Below are positions 90-54,872 of a stretch of DNA of 54,872 nucleotides, piece after piece (the first letter of the stretch is position 1; each line of letters starts with the position of its first letter). The translations under genes were made by a program, and so were the position numbers. Source of the DNA: a virus (lineage: Duplodnaviria; Caudoviricetes); IMG/VR virus record IMGVR_UViG_3300017971_000334, positions 1-54,872 of that record. One strand, given 5' to 3'. The notes under the pieces are model-generated. The model did not search any database, was not told where the DNA came from, and saw only the letters and a list, made by a program, of their open reading frames with translations.

Positions 90-542
90 TTATCTGGGCG
101 CTATAGTTGAGCGTATGTTTCCGTTCAACCAGGTCCCGCTCTGCCAGGTTCCGGTCTTCCAGGTCCCGTCCTCCCAGATCCCGCCCTTCCAGGTCCCGCT
201 CTGCCAGGTTCCGTTCAACCAGATCCCGCTCTGCCAGGTTCCGTTCAACCAGATCCCGTTCTGCCAGGTTCCGTTCAACCAGATTCCGTTCTTCCAGGTT
301 CCGGCCTGCCAGGTTCCGTTCCGCCAGGTTCCGTTCTGCCAGGTCCCGTCCCTCCAGGTCCCGTCCCACCAGATTCCGCCCTGCCAGGTTCCGCCCTGCC
401 AGGTTCCGTCCCACCAGGTTCCGTTCTTCCAGGTCCCGGATTTCCAGACGACTTTATCGTTAATAACTTCGATATCCTCGTCCTTAACGACCGCCCGTAG
501 TAGCCAGTGGTTATCAGGTAGATTAAGGTCTGCGATTCTCAT
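90..542 (-). CDS. Trp-rich pentapeptide repeat protein (G-T/I-W-x-x)n
   Basis: 150-aa ORF with about 21 tandem G[TI]Wxx units from a 15-nt degenerate repeat; AAAGGAA RBS-like sequence upstream. Confidence 0.8.
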   Translation of the reverse strand: MRIADLNLPDNHWLLRAVVKDEDIEVINDKVVWKSGTWKNGTWWDGTWQGGTWQGGIWWDGTWRDGTWQNGTWRNGTWQAGTWKNGIWLNGTWQNGIWLNGTWQSGIWLNGTWQSGTWKGGIWEDGTWKTGTWQSGTWLNGNIRSTIAPR

Positions 543-5568: not shown

Positions 5569-5645
5569 GTGAGACACTATGTCTCATTTAAGTGAGACAT
5601 GTCTCATTTAAGTGAGACACTATGTATCACCTACGTGAGACACTA
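5569..5645. repeat. palindromic iteron/operator-like repeats GTGAGACA(CTA)TGTCTCA
   Basis: Four GTGAGACA copies, two followed by the inverted TGTCTCA and one by TGTATCA. Confidence 0.85.
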
Positions 5646-23130: not shown

Positions 23131-24456
23131 ATGACCGAGATTTACCACAGCGAGAAGCCGCCTCCAGGGGCGCAGATCAACCTGACGCACCCACTGGCCG
23201 AAGATCTCGTCGGTGCGTGGCTGCTCAACGAGGGCGCGGGGCCTTCGGCCCATGACGCAAGCGGAAACGGGAACGACGGTACGGTATCCGGAGCGACGTG
23301 GGAGTCCGGTCATCTTTCCTTCGACGGGACGAACGATTTCGTCAGCCTCATCCCAGCGGGCACTGTCTTACCGGCAACGGGGTCGATCACGATCCGGGTA
23401 AGGATCAACACTTACGACGATAACGATACGCTGTTGCAGGATGAAGATAGCGGGTATCTGGATTGGGATATTAACTCGTCAGCATTACGAATACGCTTTT
23501 ATGATACCGACTTTGACGATGGCACGTTTACGGGTGTTATCTCCGATTCCGCCTGGCATACGATCACCGTCGCTTGGTCTACTGCCGGGATATGGTGCTA
23601 CGTTGACGGAAAATTATTCGGCAGCGACGCGGACTTTACCGGCCTGACGGCATCCGCCGACGGTCTAATTTTGGGTGCCGACCGGTCGGAGGGATTCAAT
23701 CTCGCCTGCGACGTCGAGTATGTCTATCTCTATAATCGCTGTCTTACCTCCGGCCAGGCCGCCCAGCTCGCCGCCGATCCCCACTGCTTCATGGACTGGT
23801 CCGGCCAGGGCCTCCGCTTCTGGGCCGCCGCGGCCACGACCACGACCACGACCACTACGACGACTACGACCAGCACCACATCGACAACCTCCAGCACCAC
23901 GAGTACCACAAGTTCGACAACCTCCACGACGACCACTACGACATCCACGACGACCAGTACGACCTCGACGACATCCAGCACCACGTCCACGACATCCACG
24001 ACGACCACGACATCCACGACGACCAGTACCACATCGTCCACGACATCCACCACATCGAGTACTACAAGTACTACAAGTACTACTTCGTCCACCACCAGTA
24101 CGACCAGCAGCACTACATCCACCACGTCCTCAACCACTTCGACGACGAGTTCCACGACGACATCGACAACCAGCACTACAACGACTACGACCAGCACCAC
24201 GTCGTCGACAACCAGTACGACCAGCACCACGTCGTCCACCACATCGACGACGAGTACGACGAGCAGTACGACTTCGACGACGAGCACCACGAGCACCACG
24301 AGTACGACTTCGACGACGAGTACGACGAGCAGCACCAGTTCTACGACATCGACAACCAGTAGTACGACGACGGCGGAGGAGAGGGCGCGGCGGAAAATAA
24401 ATGCGACCTTGGCACACGGCAGTTCTCTGATACGAACAGGGAGGTTAGCAGCGTAA
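23131..24456 (+). CDS. LamG/ConA-like domain protein with 179-residue pure Thr/Ser tract
   Basis: LVGAWLLNEGAG...DASGNGNDGT, FDGTNDFV, WHTITVAW, YVDGK, YLYNRCLT; T/S-only codons 23836-24372. Confidence 0.85.
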   Translation: MTEIYHSEKPPPGAQINLTHPLAEDLVGAWLLNEGAGPSAHDASGNGNDGTVSGATWESGHLSFDGTNDFVSLIPAGTVLPATGSITIRVRINTYDDNDTLLQDEDSGYLDWDINSSALRIRFYDTDFDDGTFTGVISDSAWHTITVAWSTAGIWCYVDGKLFGSDADFTGLTASADGLILGADRSEGFNLACDVEYVYLYNRCLTSGQAAQLAADPHCFMDWSGQGLRFWAAAATTTTTTTTTTTTSTTSTTSSTTSTTSSTTSTTTTTTSTTTSTTSTTSSTTSTTSTTTTTSTTTSTTSSTTSTTSSTTSTTSTTSSTTSTTSSTTSTTSSTTSTTSSTTTSTTSTTTTTTSTTSSTTSTTSTTSSTTSTTSTTSSTTSTTSTTSTTSTTSTTSTTSSTSSTTSTTSSTTTAEERARRKINATLAHGSSLIRTGRLAA

Positions 24457-26553: not shown

Positions 26554-27510
26554 ATGGGAACCGTAACGGAGCTATTTGGCTATGATACGGACGACGACGC
26601 CATCGAGAACTGCACCCAAGTGTCAGTGGGACCGGGATGCGTCTACGAGGCGGGAGAGCTGGAAGCGTGCTACAACGATCCCGCCGAAACGGACGGGACG
26701 GTCAACCCCGGTTGGTTGGAGGTCTACGTTCCGGACTGTGCCGACTGGTACAAGGTCTGCTACGACAGCGAGGCCGACTCCCTCAGCGCCGAGATCCCCG
26801 ACGACTGTTGCACCACGACTACGACCACTACAACTACGACCACTACAACTACGACCACCAGTACGACGAGCAGTACGACGAGCAGTACGACCAGCACGAC
26901 CAGCTCCACAACATCTACAACCTCGAGCACGACGACTTCCACCACCAGTACCACGACCACGACCAGCACGACTTCGACGACCAGCACAACCAGCACGACT
27001 TCGACGACCAGCACGACCAGCACCACGAGTACTACAAGTACTACAAGCACTACGAGTACGACTTCGACGACCAGCACTACGAGTACGACGACTACGAGCA
27101 CGACTTCGAGTTCGAGCACGACCAGCACGACCAGTTCGACGAGTAGTACGACTACCGAGGGGTATGGGGATTGCACGGACTGTTGCGATGCACTCGAAGA
27201 GGCTTACCCCTCCGGGTTCTCCGTCAAGTTTGTCGGAGATGATGACTGCGAGGTGGAGGGCACGGCGACAAGAAATGCAGGTACCTGTCAATGGCAGTAT
27301 GATACGGGGACCGGTACCTCCATCACGATTACATTTTGTGGTGCCGGGGATACAATTTCGGCAGGAGTGGTGGACATCTGTCAGGGCGGAACGGACTGCG
27401 TGGACTGCACCGGGTCGTGGTCGCCCTATGATTACTGCTACTTCCCGAATACGGATGGGCTTCACGCCGATGGTCCGGGTAACACGGGAACATTCTACTG
27501 GGGGTATTAG
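26554..27510 (+). CDS. mucin-like protein: Cys-rich / 115-residue Thr-Ser tract / Cys-rich
   Basis: T/S-only codons 26812-27156 flanked by acidic Cys-rich segments. Confidence 0.8.
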   Translation: MGTVTELFGYDTDDDAIENCTQVSVGPGCVYEAGELEACYNDPAETDGTVNPGWLEVYVPDCADWYKVCYDSEADSLSAEIPDDCCTTTTTTTTTTTTTTTTSTTSSTTSSTTSTTSSTTSTTSSTTTSTTSTTTTTSTTSTTSTTSTTSTTSTTSTTSTTSTTSTTSTTSTTSTTSTTTTSTTSSSSTTSTTSSTSSTTTEGYGDCTDCCDALEEAYPSGFSVKFVGDDDCEVEGTATRNAGTCQWQYDTGTGTSITITFCGAGDTISAGVVDICQGGTDCVDCTGSWSPYDYCYFPNTDGLHADGPGNTGTFYWGY

Positions 27511-49750: not shown

Positions 49751-50452
49751 TCATGGTAAAATCCTTTCGGGGTTCGGGTTGAGGGTATAGTGGATGTTGT
49801 CGGGGAGAGCCCTTTCGGGGTCCCCAGCGAGGTGGCGGGCGAGGAGGTCCCAGTGGAGCTCGGTCGCCTCGACCCACTGGGGGTTTCGGCCCGTGAAGAG
49901 GGCAGCGGGGTGGTAGGTGCAGAAGCAGTAGGGATTGACGGTGGTGGTGAGGTCGGGGAGTTCGGGGTGGAGGGAGCAGAAGCGGTGGCCTTGGCAGTGG
50001 AAGGCCGCCGAGAGCTTGCGGTTGAAAATGGCGTAGGAGGCGGACGCGCCGTTGGCGAAGAGGACGACGTGGGGGTAGGCGGTGCAGAGGATGTCGATGT
50101 CGGCGAGGAGCCACCGGCGACGGCAGTAGCGGACCTGGGACACGGTGGGCTTTTTTCCGAGCGGGGGACGACAGCGGCAGGCGTTGGCGAGGTAGATGTC
50201 GGCGTGGTCGGCGAGGTGGGTCTGGACAAGGAAGGACGAGAGCAGTTCGCCGGTGCGTCCGATCCACGAGGTGCCGGAGCGGTCCTCCTGGGAGCCGGGC
50301 GCTTCGCCGACGATAAGGACGCAGCGCGGCATCCGTTCCCTGTTTGGCGAAAACAGACGGGTCGGGATGCCTACGCTGCGGTTCCCGGAGGTATGCCGCA
50401 GGGCGCACTTGTCGTGGTCACACCCGGTACTGTCGATAAACGAGAGAATCAT
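49751..50452 (-). CDS. family 4 uracil-DNA glycosylase-like protein
   Basis: CDHDKCAL, IVGEAPG, WIGRTG, NACRCRPP, C, TYHPAA. Confidence 0.85.
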   Translation of the reverse strand: MILSFIDSTGCDHDKCALRHTSGNRSVGIPTRLFSPNRERMPRCVLIVGEAPGSQEDRSGTSWIGRTGELLSSFLVQTHLADHADIYLANACRCRPPLGKKPTVSQVRYCRRRWLLADIDILCTAYPHVVLFANGASASYAIFNRKLSAAFHCQGHRFCSLHPELPDLTTTVNPYCFCTYHPAALFTGRNPQWVEATELHWDLLARHLAGDPERALPDNIHYTLNPNPERILP

Positions 50453-50889
50453 TTCTTCGTCCGCCGCATTGCCACCTGCATGGAGCCGATCACACCGGAC
50501 AGTTCCTTGAGGATGTGGTACTTTTCCGTGAAGGCTTGCATGTCCCGATAGGCTTCCTTGAGGAGCTGGTCCCGAAGGATGGAGGATGCCATCACGTCGT
50601 TGATGGTGCGGTAGCCGCCACCGGAACGGTTGCGGTCCGAGCCTACGCTGACGTAGGTGCGGGTGGGCATGTCCTCCCGGACGGTGACGAATACTCGAAT
50701 GAGGCGGCGGGCCTCTTCCAATCGGTACTCGTGGGCGGCTTTGGCGTCGTCCCATGTAAAGTATTGGTGGAGTGGGGACTTTTCCTTCTCGGCGGCCTTC
50801 ACTACCGAGGCAGGGCGCAGTACGCCCCGACCCCGCTTACGGATTTTCTCTAGTTCCTGGTACACTTCGTCTTTCTTTTTCATATTCAT
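50449..50889 (-). CDS. conserved phage protein downstream of the RAMP/array locus
   Basis: LRPASVVKAA...SPLHQYFTWDDAKAAHEYRLEEARRLIR; GGAG RBS. Confidence 0.75.
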   Translation of the reverse strand: MNMKKKDEVYQELEKIRKRGRGVLRPASVVKAAEKEKSPLHQYFTWDDAKAAHEYRLEEARRLIRVFVTVREDMPTRTYVSVGSDRNRSGGGYRTINDVMASSILRDQLLKEAYRDMQAFTEKYHILKELSGVIGSMQVAMRRTKK

Positions 50890-50944
50890 AGCTATCTCCT
50901 ATTGTCGTAAATAGTACGGTACGGGTTGGGTTCCTTCATTCGTT

Positions 50945-51069
50945 GTCGTGTCTGTCTTGTCGTGTCCTGTCCGGTCTAGTCTAGTCAGGTCGTGTCGTGT
51001 CTGTCTTGTCGGGTCGGGTCTCGTCTGGTCTAGTCGCGTCTTGTCAAGTCTGTCGAGTTACGTCTAGTC
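50945..51069 (-). ncRNA. (GAC-NN)n pentamer array, candidate guide RNA
   Basis: 26 phased triplets (25 GAC, 1 AAC) separated by variable dinucleotides, with a single-A spacer every tenth unit; begins inside the TGA stop of the RAMP-like gene; non-coding. The repeat is certain, the RNA role is inferred. Confidence 0.7.
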
Positions 51070-51703
51070 ACTTTAGTTTGAAGGTTCCCAAACCCATACC
51101 GTTTGCTTTTCGGGAATCGTGACGGCCCTCACCGATGCCGACCTGTATCCCCACGCGGAGGAACAGGTTGGTGATGTCGGCGAGGGTAAACATATTGGCG
51201 TCGTATTGGATCTTCACATGGGCTTCCCACCCGGCATCCCACTGGGGTAAGGGATGGATGTCCATCACGCCGGATTCGAGACGGCAAGGGACATCGACCC
51301 GCCGGGGTGTACCCCTAGTGATGCGAACGAGGGGGGTTCCATCGGTTTCGTCGTGTCCGTCAGCGATGCAGAACAGGGAGAGCTTGGCCCGCGTCATAGT
51401 GAACTCTACAAGGCGGCAGGCGCTGATGAGGGCGTTCCGAAACGCACTGGCAGGGATGCCTTTCCACCCCTTCGGAGAGGAATGGATGCACCCTCTGTAC
51501 ATCTCGTCGAAGTTTTTGGGAGGTTTGGCCTTTCGTTTTCCCCGTTGAGCGGAGCCCGCCTCCTGCGCCTCGATCATCGTGATACGTGCTTTGTGGGAAA
51601 ATTTGTTTTGGCGGTAGGGGGCGGTACCAACGATGTGGAACTCGGCGATGGGAAGGTTGGGGGGTGAAATAGCGACTTTTTCTTTTTTCGTGACTTTTGC
51701 CAT
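51068..51703 (-). CDS. stand-alone RAMP (Cas7/Csm3-like) protein
   Basis: FHIVGTAPY first strand, GIPASAFRNAL (compare IPGSSLKG..R of Cas7-group RAMPs), C-terminal Gly-rich loop VGIGEGR...GMGLGTF; AGGAGA RBS. Confidence 0.75.
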   Translation of the reverse strand: MAKVTKKEKVAISPPNLPIAEFHIVGTAPYRQNKFSHKARITMIEAQEAGSAQRGKRKAKPPKNFDEMYRGCIHSSPKGWKGIPASAFRNALISACRLVEFTMTRAKLSLFCIADGHDETDGTPLVRITRGTPRRVDVPCRLESGVMDIHPLPQWDAGWEAHVKIQYDANMFTLADITNLFLRVGIQVGIGEGRHDSRKANGMGLGTFKLK

Positions 51704-54751: not shown

Positions 54752-54872
54752 TTATCTGGGCGCTATAGTTGAGCGTATGTTTCCGGTCCTCCAGATTCCG
54801 CTCTGCCAAACTCCGTCCCACCAGGTTCCGTTCTGCCAGGTTCCGGTCTTCCAGGTTCCGCCCCTCCAGGTC
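54752..54872 (-). CDS. 3' part of second copy of the Trp-pentapeptide-repeat gene (enters from the right edge)
   Basis: Translates TWRGGTWKTGTWQNGTWWDGVWQSGIWRTGNIRSTIAPR-stop; same C-terminus as 90..542 but different repeat units. Confidence 0.8.
   Translation of the reverse strand, partial: TWRGGTWKTGTWQNGTWWDGVWQSGIWRTGNIRSTIAPR

What the first reader, a model, noticed from the sequence alone, without database searches (positions are those of the whole stretch)
50945..51069. The array has a strict 49-nt super-period defining two complete nine-dinucleotide units
Seen, on the sense (minus) strand: GAC-TA GAC-GT AAC-TC | GAC-A | TT AA GC TA CA GA CC CC AA | GAC-A | AC AC CT TA TA CG AG AC AA | GAC-A | AC AA, with each dinucleotide preceded by GAC. 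The 4-nt units lie at 50950, 50999 and 51048, exactly 49 nt apart, and both full units end in AAGACAGAC. Slippage-born microsatellites homogenise their units, whereas here only the NN positions vary. Inference: GACAGAC is a processing or phase boundary, and each 49-mer is one guide carrying about 16-18 informative bases.
Basis: partly seen in the sequence, partly recalled or inferred. Interest (0 to 1): 0.85.

Follow-up and report, generated by a model that had tools for sequence, protein, structure and literature searches.

The report
Phage VIPR guide-RNA array, GAC type
The repeat is the guide-RNA array of a phage VIPR system, a recently described CRISPR-like way for viruses to silence rival DNA, so it is a real and functional feature of a kind already in print.

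Summary
On the minus strand, 51069 to 50943 carries 25 GAC and one AAC in 5-nt steps.

It is the vrRNA array of a VIPR system (bioRxiv 10.64898/2026.04.26.720920).
- The upstream 211-aa gene folds as a Cas7-like RAMP and matches SUSP1 Vipr (hhalign 96%).
- 43 of 45 homologous viral loci also carry the downstream 146-aa partner gene.
- 40 of 45 carry a 5-nt array of 9 or more units beside the gene.
- In close relatives, whole cassettes between 4-nt steps are swapped.

49 is simply ten units, the commonest length; relatives mostly have 39 to 69 nt between steps.

The GAC scaffold replaces the canonical GGY. GAC/NN arrays of ten repeats are already noted in print (10.64898/2026.10.21.760802).

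Not shown here: transcription, processing and the target. One guide matches a bacterial membrane-protein gene beside an integrase, but hit numbers are near chance.

Verdict: a new member of a known kind.

The parts
51068..51703 (-). vipr gene, 211 aa, a Cas7-like RAMP protein. Its TGA stop (51070-51068) overlaps the first GAC of the array.
   Evidence: AlphaFold model pLDDT 88.9. The Foldseek PDB matches listed are nearly all Cas7-like RAMP subunits of type III Csm/Cmr and type VII complexes, best E 5.6e-6, prob 1.00. Family profile against PDB 36pp 'SUSP1 Vipr protein' gives E 8.7e-7. hhalign against SUSP1 YP_009199429.1 gives 96.2%, E 2.6e-9 over the C-terminal 59 columns.
50943..51069 (-). 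Whole vrRNA array: 26 pentamer units with scaffold GAC (one AAC) and variable NN.
51051..51069 (-). Short 5' part, GAC-TA GAC-GT AAC-TC GAC-A, ending in the first 4-nt step.
   Evidence: In relatives the arrays usually open directly with a 4-nt step.
51002..51050 (-). Guide B, 49 nt: nine GAC-NN (TT AA GC TA CA GA CC CC AA) plus the closing GAC-A.
   Evidence: The boundary reading rests and on the fig. S18 legend.
50953..51001 (-). Guide C, 49 nt: nine GAC-NN (AC AC CT TA TA CG AG AC AA) plus the closing GAC-A.
50943..50952 (-). Two trailing units (GAC-AC GAC-AA) after the last 4-nt step.
50890..50942 (-). Non-repeat spacer carrying the ribosome-binding site (AGGAG) of the next gene. There is no structured tail.
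   Evidence: The fold of 50890-51075 is no more stable than shuffles, z +1.05.
50449..50889 (-). Accessory (vap-like) gene, 146 aa, phrog_15946.
   Evidence: Found on the same strand as vipr in 43 of 45 loci fetched by Vipr homology. Model pLDDT 93.1. No significant PDB fold match. No likeness to SUSP1 vap1.

Best explanation
The locus 50449-51703 (minus strand) is a VIPR system of a phage: vipr, then a vrRNA array, then an accessory gene.

Shown here: the gene family, the architecture of the array, and its turnover in relatives.

Taken from the published SUSP1 work: one Vipr protomer binds each pentamer. The protein sequesters the fixed trinucleotide and presents the two variable bases. These pair with one strand of double-stranded DNA while every third target base is skipped, and the bound filament blocks transcription of a rival mobile element.

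Inferred for this window:
- The array is transcribed with the operon on the minus strand.
- Each stretch between two 4-nt steps (GAC-A-GAC) is one guide of ten units. The window therefore encodes two complete guides, each with 18 informative bases.
- The scaffold is GAC instead of GGY.
For: (1) Vipr identity. The glycine-rich loop G189-x-G191-E-G-R194 aligns with SUSP1 G174-V-G-D177-W178-R179. Those are the residues the structure paper names as scaffold contacts (section 5 of 10.64898/2026.04.26.720927).

(2) Conserved module. Of 45 viral loci found by protein homology alone, 43 also carry the 146-aa partner. 40 carry a 5-nt chain of 9 or more units and 43 a chain of 7 or more. The fixed triplet differs by lineage: GGC, GAC/GTC, AGC, GGA, GTT, CGC.

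(3) Boundaries. On the vipr strand the single letter of the 4-nt step is A in 140 of 157 steps of GGC loci, 16 of 22 of GTC loci and 3 of 3 here. L145/L146 (vipr DNA 98.5% identical) and L126/L127 (93%) share some cassettes between such steps and differ wholly in others.

(4) No self-target. The best match is 13 of 18, as for shuffled guides. The paper reports the same for its systems.

(5) The array RNA is unstructured.

(6) GAC/NN arrays 'repeated 10 times' beside Vipr-like folds are reported in 10.64898/2026.10.21.760802 (passage read).

(7) Named phages carry the same gene pair and stepped arrays: Cyanophage Cy-LDV1 (53% identity) and Gordonia phage Pipp.
Against: - There is no RNA evidence for this phage, so the strand, the ends and the processing are not observed.
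- Sequence likeness to SUSP1 Vipr is confined to the C-terminal quarter. The rest rests on a predicted fold.
- The accessory gene is unrelated to SUSP1 vap1 (hhalign prob 0.1).
- There is no 3' tail like that of type II vrRNAs.
- Exact 1-nt-skip patterns of both guides found nothing in viral contigs.
- The 14 metagenome hits and 7 genome hits are in the range I would roughly expect by chance for 18 fixed bases (my estimate, not calibrated). None of the guide C hits has the skipped base at the codon wobble position.
- In several related loci GAC lies on the strand opposite to vipr. I read these as GTC scaffolds, but that is an inference.
Confidence: 0.88

Rival explanations
1. It is a VIPR array, but the 4-nt steps are not guide ends. 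The whole 26-unit tract would be one long vrRNA, with the steps acting only as register shifts inside a filament.
For: No RNA ends were seen for this phage (one search listed no RNA run). The two junctions share an 18-nt string, which could be a duplication scar.
Against: Published vrRNAs have 9-16 repeats. Relatives exchange cassettes exactly at the steps. The fig. S18 legend describes vrRNAs that abut with a 1-nt overlap. Non-canonical arrays are said to repeat 10 times.
Confidence: 0.08
2. It is a DNA-level element of the replication module: an origin or iteron tract bound by the 146-aa protein, or a run of primase recognition sites. On the + strand the array reads NNGTC, which is the T7 primase site as I recall it.
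For: The array lies among replication genes: PolA, a UDG-like gene and an ERCC4 nuclease. In relatives the array orientation relative to the genes varies.
Against: The constant partner is a Cas7-like RAMP, an RNA-binding fold, and not a primase or initiator. The fixed triplet changes between close relatives while the module stays. Hypervariable cassettes make no sense for iterons.
Confidence: 0.03
3. It is a slippage microsatellite with no function.
For: It is a short-period tandem repeat in an intergenic gap.
Against: The triplet is kept in 25 of 26 units while the NN are of 13 kinds. The same design recurs beside homologous genes in 40 of 45 loci.
Confidence: 0.01

Closest known systems
VIPR type II of Escherichia phage SUSP1 (NC_028808.2; vipr YP_009199429.1, vap1 YP_009199428.1)
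   Same: Both have the gene order vipr then a 146-aa accessory gene on one strand, with pentamer arrays in the flanking gaps. The G-loop and the strand before it are homologous. Both are carried by a phage.
   Different: SUSP1 uses a GGT/GGC scaffold, and each vrRNA is a separate unit with a structured tail of about 40 nt. Here the scaffold is GAC, the guides abut through 4-nt steps without tails, and the accessory protein is unrelated.
Non-canonical VIPR arrays (GAC/NN, CAC/NN and others) in 10.64898/2026.10.21.760802
   Same: A fixed GAC with variable NN, ten repeats, and a Vipr-like fold next door (passage read).
   Different: That paper gives cluster-level statistics only. I could not see its figure S10 or its data, so I cannot tell whether this phage or its clade is among them.
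Staggered vrRNA arrays (fig. S18 of 10.64898/2026.04.26.720920)
   Same: [quoted passage not shown]
   Different: I read only the legend. The VIPR type and the scaffold of the example are not known to me.
Class 1 CRISPR backbone (Cas7/Csm3/Cmr4 on crRNA)
   Same: The same protein fold. One protomer binds each repeat of the guide, and a thumb breaks the pairing periodically.
   Different: There is no CRISPR repeat-spacer array and no other cas gene among the proteins I scanned. The period is 5 nt with 2 paired bases, not 6 nt with 5.
TRAP bound to the trp leader (recalled, not tested)
   Same: Triplets spaced by 2 nt are read by an oligomer, one subunit per triplet.
   Different: In TRAP the triplets are what is recognised and the spacers carry no information. 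Here the spacers are the information. No TRAP-like protein is present.

Membership tests
VIPR system | A Vipr protein: a minimal RAMP with an RRM core, a glycine-rich loop and a thumb | tested here: met
   Model pLDDT 88.9 with a beta-alpha-beta core, long beta-hairpins (124-141, 147-167) and a C-terminal glycine-rich loop 189-207. Cas7-family matches. Matches to SUSP1 Vipr.
VIPR system | Tandem pentamers of a fixed trinucleotide and a hypervariable dinucleotide next to vipr | tested here: met
   The same is seen beside homologues in 40 of 45 loci. NN cassettes differ between close relatives.
VIPR system | Canonical scaffold GGY (YNNGG), or the listed variants NNNGG, YNNNG, NNNNG | tested here: not met
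   The scaffold is GAC (C-NN-GA), which fits none of the four forms named in the methods. 'gac' occurs 0 times in that main text. GAC/NN is named as a non-canonical VIPR motif in a later preprint.
VIPR system | An adjacent accessory (vap) gene | tested here: met
   The 146-aa gene co-occurs on the same strand in 43 of 45 loci. I cannot say which of vap1-6 it is, if any; it is not vap1. The supplements are closed.
VIPR system | The vrRNA is expressed and bound by Vipr | not testable with these tools
   No RNA run holds the stretch.
VIPR system | The NN match a target in a rival mobile element under the 1-nt skip rule | tested here: inconclusive
   Viral contigs gave 0 hits. Guide B hit 8 homologous metagenome genes in wobble phase, one beside an integrase. 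The total number of hits is near my rough chance estimate. The guide C hits are out of phase.
VIPR type II (SUSP1 clade) | Separate vrRNAs, each with a conserved pseudoknot tail, and vap1 | tested here: not met
   There is no tail between guides. The accessory gene is unrelated to vap1.
CRISPR-Cas | A repeat-spacer array with repeats of 20 nt or more, and cas genes | tested here: not met
   Tandem Repeats Finder shows no such array in the contig. The neighbours are replication genes.

The most novel reading that the evidence does not exclude
The GAC scaffold may be a natural change of scaffold specificity. The two Viprs whose arrays read GAC on the vipr strand are the window and L087, which are not sisters in the tree. 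Both have lost the arginine that aligns with SUSP1 R138, the thumb residue that holds the second G of GGY. The window has L152 and L087 has Q. 39 of the other 40 aligned Viprs keep R, and the one exception (L131, S) also has a non-GG scaffold.

Such a private scaffold would keep this phage's guides from being used, or its protein from being redirected, by rival GGY-type elements. In addition, guide B may silence a membrane-protein gene carried on an integrase-borne island of marine bacteria.
Probability: 0.25. Interest if true: 0.6.

Novelty: new member of a known kind. Interest (0 to 1): 0.35.

Why it matters
VIPR was described only in 2026, and nearly all experiments concern one coliphage clade with GGY scaffolds and tailed vrRNAs. 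This environmental phage is a compact, complete example of the tail-less, abutting-guide architecture with a GAC scaffold.

The family collected here shows the scaffold triplet changing repeatedly among Viprs that are 45-60% identical. That is a ready-made natural experiment on how the protein reads its scaffold. It could also yield orthogonal protein-RNA pairs for programmable DNA binding.

It does not change the picture of what such arrays are.

Tried and rejected
**Early ideas, from memory**
- A TRAP-like ring protein reading RNA triplets, and a run of T7-type primase sites (NNGTC on the + strand). I dropped both once the neighbour proved to be a RAMP.

**Family and homology searches**
- Pfam and PHROGs gave no name for either gene. 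The only matches were weak hits or families of unknown function (phrog_4652, phrog_15946).
- A single-protein scan of viral contigs found no relative.
- Two wide alignments were too diverse to seed a scan. A closer alignment worked.

**Target searches with exact 9-NN, 1-nt-skip patterns**
- Viral contigs: 0 hits for each guide.
- Metagenome contigs: 14 hits for guide B.
- Genome contigs: 7 hits for guide C, none in wobble phase.
- Guide C reaches only 11-12 of 18 on the guide B loci, and guide B only 11-13 of 18 on the guide C loci.
- Own genome, gaps 0-3: nothing above shuffled guides except 15 of 18 for guide B at gap 0, reached by 3 of 100 shuffles.

**The candidate target protein**
- It has no Pfam or PADLOC family and only a weak phrog_21267 match.
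- It has no match in the phage or plasmid collections.
- Its atlas neighbours are unnamed bacterial proteins.

**Other checks**
- No RNA holder is listed.
- Contigs of three other runs carry the array unchanged, so they say nothing about variation.
- A 30-nt piece of guide B has no exact match in viral contigs.
- The fold of the 146-aa protein has no significant PDB match: best E 1.1, with only faint winged-helix and forkhead rows.
- No Rfam family reached its gathering score, so no hammerhead was found (the one match, E 0.51, is chance level). No promoter-like or terminator-like site lies on the minus strand.
- Earlier findings of this scan: none.
- A search among relatives of the host was not possible for a virus record.

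Full report
**The observation**

The window is the whole 54,872-bp contig of a virus record. On the minus strand, from 51069 down to 50943, there are 25 GAC and one AAC in 5-nt steps. Three 4-nt steps interrupt them: GACA at 51054-51051, 51005-51002 and 50956-50953. They are 49 nt apart.

Both full units end in AAGACAGAC.

- A four-unit GACNN pattern matches 14 times, all inside the array, against 0.03 expected.
- No other such array exists in the contig.
- The triplet is kept in 25 of 26 units, while the 22 dinucleotides parsed are of 13 kinds.
- The two 49-mers agree at 7 of 18 NN letters (my count), so they are not a fresh duplication. Their junctions do share the 18-nt string GACAAGACAGACACGACA.

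**Setting**

The array fills most of a 178-nt gap between two minus-strand genes. The upstream gene encodes 211 aa (51068-51703), and its TGA stop overlaps the first GAC. The downstream gene encodes 146 aa (50449-50889). A UDG-like gene, a family A DNA polymerase and an ERCC4 nuclease follow. Pfam named neither flanking gene. PHROGs gave only families of unknown function.

**Relatives**

Of these loci, 58 carry arrays with diverse NN; one search counted 59 including the window. The rest are plain microsatellites.

Clustering the neighbouring ORFs gave two partner sets:
- the window's 211-aa and 146-aa families;
- a family of about 170 aa in 23 loci, always on the GAC strand.

A profile of the 211-aa family also hits an ORF in 28 of the 119 pattern loci, including 11 of the 23 loci of the second set.

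Searching by protein homology alone gave 45 further viral loci.
- 43 of the 45 also have the 146-aa partner on the same strand.
- 43 have a 5-nt chain of at least 7 units, and 40 have one of at least 9.
- As a background, the same loose detector finds four chains of 9-10 units elsewhere in the 55-kb window, all in low-complexity stretches.

The fixed triplet differs between loci: GGC in most, then GAC/GTC, AGC, GGA, GTT and CGC.

**Identification**

A profile of the 211-aa family matches one PDB sequence, 36pp 'SUSP1 Vipr protein', at E 6.1e-5 with 9 sequences and 8.7e-7 with 42.

This led to four 2026 preprints:
- From 10.64898/2026.04.26.720920 I read the abstract, results, discussion, part of the methods and the figure legends.
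- From 10.64898/2026.04.26.720927 I read the outline and sections 5 and 6.
- From 10.64898/2026.10.15.759431 I read the outline, the introduction, one methods section and passages.
- From 10.64898/2026.10.21.760802 I read passages only.

They describe VIPR systems as follows. A minimal RAMP protein (Vipr) and an accessory gene (vap) are encoded beside vrRNAs made of 9-16 pentamers. In each pentamer a fixed GGY alternates with a hypervariable NN. One protomer binds each repeat and buries the GGY. The NN pair with double-stranded DNA while every third target base is skipped. The bound filament silences rival phages and satellites.

**Tests of membership done here**

- The AlphaFold model of the 211-aa protein is confident (pLDDT 88.9).
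- Its Foldseek matches in the PDB are nearly all Cas7-like RAMP subunits of type III Csm/Cmr and type VII complexes, with best E 5.6e-6 and TM about 0.5.
- I fetched the SUSP1 record. hhalign of the family against its Vipr gives 96.2% probability, E 2.6e-9, over the C-terminal 59 columns.
- The SUSP1 locus has the same order, vipr followed by a 146-aa gene. That vap1 is unrelated to the window's 146-aa family (probability 0.1).
- The SUSP1 vrRNAs are separate GGT/GGC tracts, each with a hairpin tail.
- The window's accessory protein models well (pLDDT 93.1) but has no significant PDB match.

So the window is a VIPR system but not of type II. I cannot assign its type because the supplements are closed.

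**The 4-nt steps**

The legend of fig. S18 of the first preprint describes 'staggered' arrays whose vrRNAs come from positions overlapping by 1 nt, the end of one marking the start of the next. Such an overlap gives a 4-nt step.

- In 36 loci including the window, read on the vipr strand, the single letter of the step is A in 140 of 157 steps of GGC loci, 16 of 22 of GTC loci and 3 of 3 here.
- The 96 intervals between successive steps are mostly 39 to 69 nt. 49 is the commonest (19), followed by 54 (15) and 59 (13). That every interval is 5k-1 follows from the method and is not a finding.
- Close relatives are the real test. L145 and L146 have vipr DNA 98.5% identical, and L126 and L127 93%. 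Each pair shares some cassettes between steps and differs completely in others.

This supports the step as a guide boundary.

Cyanophage Cy-LDV1 (Vipr 53% identical) and Gordonia phage Pipp show the same stepped GGC arrays next to the same gene pair.

**Strand and scaffold**

In the window GAC lies on the gene strand. In several relatives GAC lies on the opposite strand. Read on the vipr strand, those arrays are GTC or GTT, and their steps are then mostly GTC-A-GTC, like GGC-A-GGC. I therefore take the vipr strand as the RNA strand throughout; this is an inference.

- The array RNA is no more structured than shuffles (z +1.05).
- No promoter-like or terminator-like site separates it from the genes on the minus strand.
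- No Rfam family reached its gathering score; the one match (E 0.51) is chance level.

On a tree of 42 Viprs the GAC/GTC label needs 5 changes, at least 2 of them forced by well-supported branches. The window's nearest relatives use GGC (L120, 60% identity).

The alignment to SUSP1 places its R138, the thumb contact of the second G, opposite window position 152. The window has L there and L087, the other GAC-sense locus, has Q. 39 of the other 40 have R. The exception, L131 (S), has a T/G-G-C scaffold. This is suggestive co-variation from very few lineages.

GAC/NN arrays 'repeated 10 times' beside Vipr-like folds are already reported in the fourth preprint.

**Targets**

Following the published rule, I searched the nine NN of each guide joined by single wildcards.

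- Viral contigs gave no exact match for either guide.
- The contig itself has no match above shuffled guides at a 1-nt gap: 13 of 18, reached by about 90% of shuffles.
- Guide C gave 7 hits in genome contigs. In none does the skipped base fall on the wobble position of the covering long ORF.
- Guide B gave 14 hits in metagenome contigs.
- Eight of those lie in one family of membrane proteins of about 255 aa, at the peptide FGGSWYAFK. The skipped bases fall on the wobble positions and vary between the eight.
- In L179 that gene lies two genes after a tyrosine integrase that abuts housekeeping genes.
- The protein has no known family and no match in the phage or plasmid collections.
- Guide C does not match these loci: 11-12 of 18.

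The number of independent hits is in the range I would roughly expect by chance for 18 fixed bases in collections of this size. I could not run a shuffled control. The match is a candidate target only.

**Occurrence**

Eight DNA runs from sediment and seawater metagenomes, in six studies, hold the stretch; two of the runs may be its source. No RNA run is listed. Contigs of three other runs carry the array without a single difference.

**Verdict**

The feature belongs to a kind published in 2026, including its GAC variant. It is a new member of a known kind.

Noticed in passing
L004, L012, L017, L024 and 19 further viral loci: A second kind of GACNN locus. Several arrays of 10-24 units lie on both sides of a gene of about 170 aa that is always on the GAC strand and ends in a TLKLF-like motif. 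11 of the 23 loci also hold a distant Vipr hit. In L004 the arrays are separated by a constant 35-nt linker.
   Followed up: partly
window 51003-51050, runs X5 and X7: Other low-depth contigs in the same samples carry a stretch like guide B (2-8 differences) between quite different flanks. One contig repeats part of it with 12 other letters between the copies. This may mean that guide cassettes are shared or shuffled among elements.
   Followed up: no
window position 152 of the 211-aa protein (DNA 51248-51250); alignment A5: The arginine aligned with SUSP1 R138 is L here, Q in L087 and S in L131. These are the three loci whose scaffold departs from GG at the first or second base on the vipr strand. 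Position 192, aligned with SUSP1 D177, is A in both AGC loci, but also in three others.
   Followed up: partly
L179 3702-7792: The candidate target of guide B sits in an integrase-borne island: a tyrosine integrase, a 200-aa ORF, the membrane protein, a 155-aa ORF and a DUF4238 protein. The island lies next to chorismate-binding and aminotransferase genes.
   Followed up: partly
window 119-438 and 54781-54871: Related 15-nt and 60-nt tandem repeats stand at both ends of the contig. This suggests that the record is circular or terminally redundant, with one repeat tract spanning the ends.
   Followed up: no
window 23834-24347 and 26818-27145: Long Thr/Ser-rich tracts are encoded by 9-nt-period repeats in two + strand genes, one of them with a lectin-like N-terminal part. 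They are probably linkers of fibre or adhesin proteins.
   Followed up: no
window 5569-5645: There are 3.5 copies of a 23-nt repeat, each containing the inverted repeat GTGAGAC..GTCTCAT, in an intergenic stretch. It could be an operator or an origin.
   Followed up: no
L131 4764-4828: A Vipr locus whose array has T or G at the first scaffold base (TGC/GGC). It is an example of a scaffold degenerate at one position.
   Followed up: no
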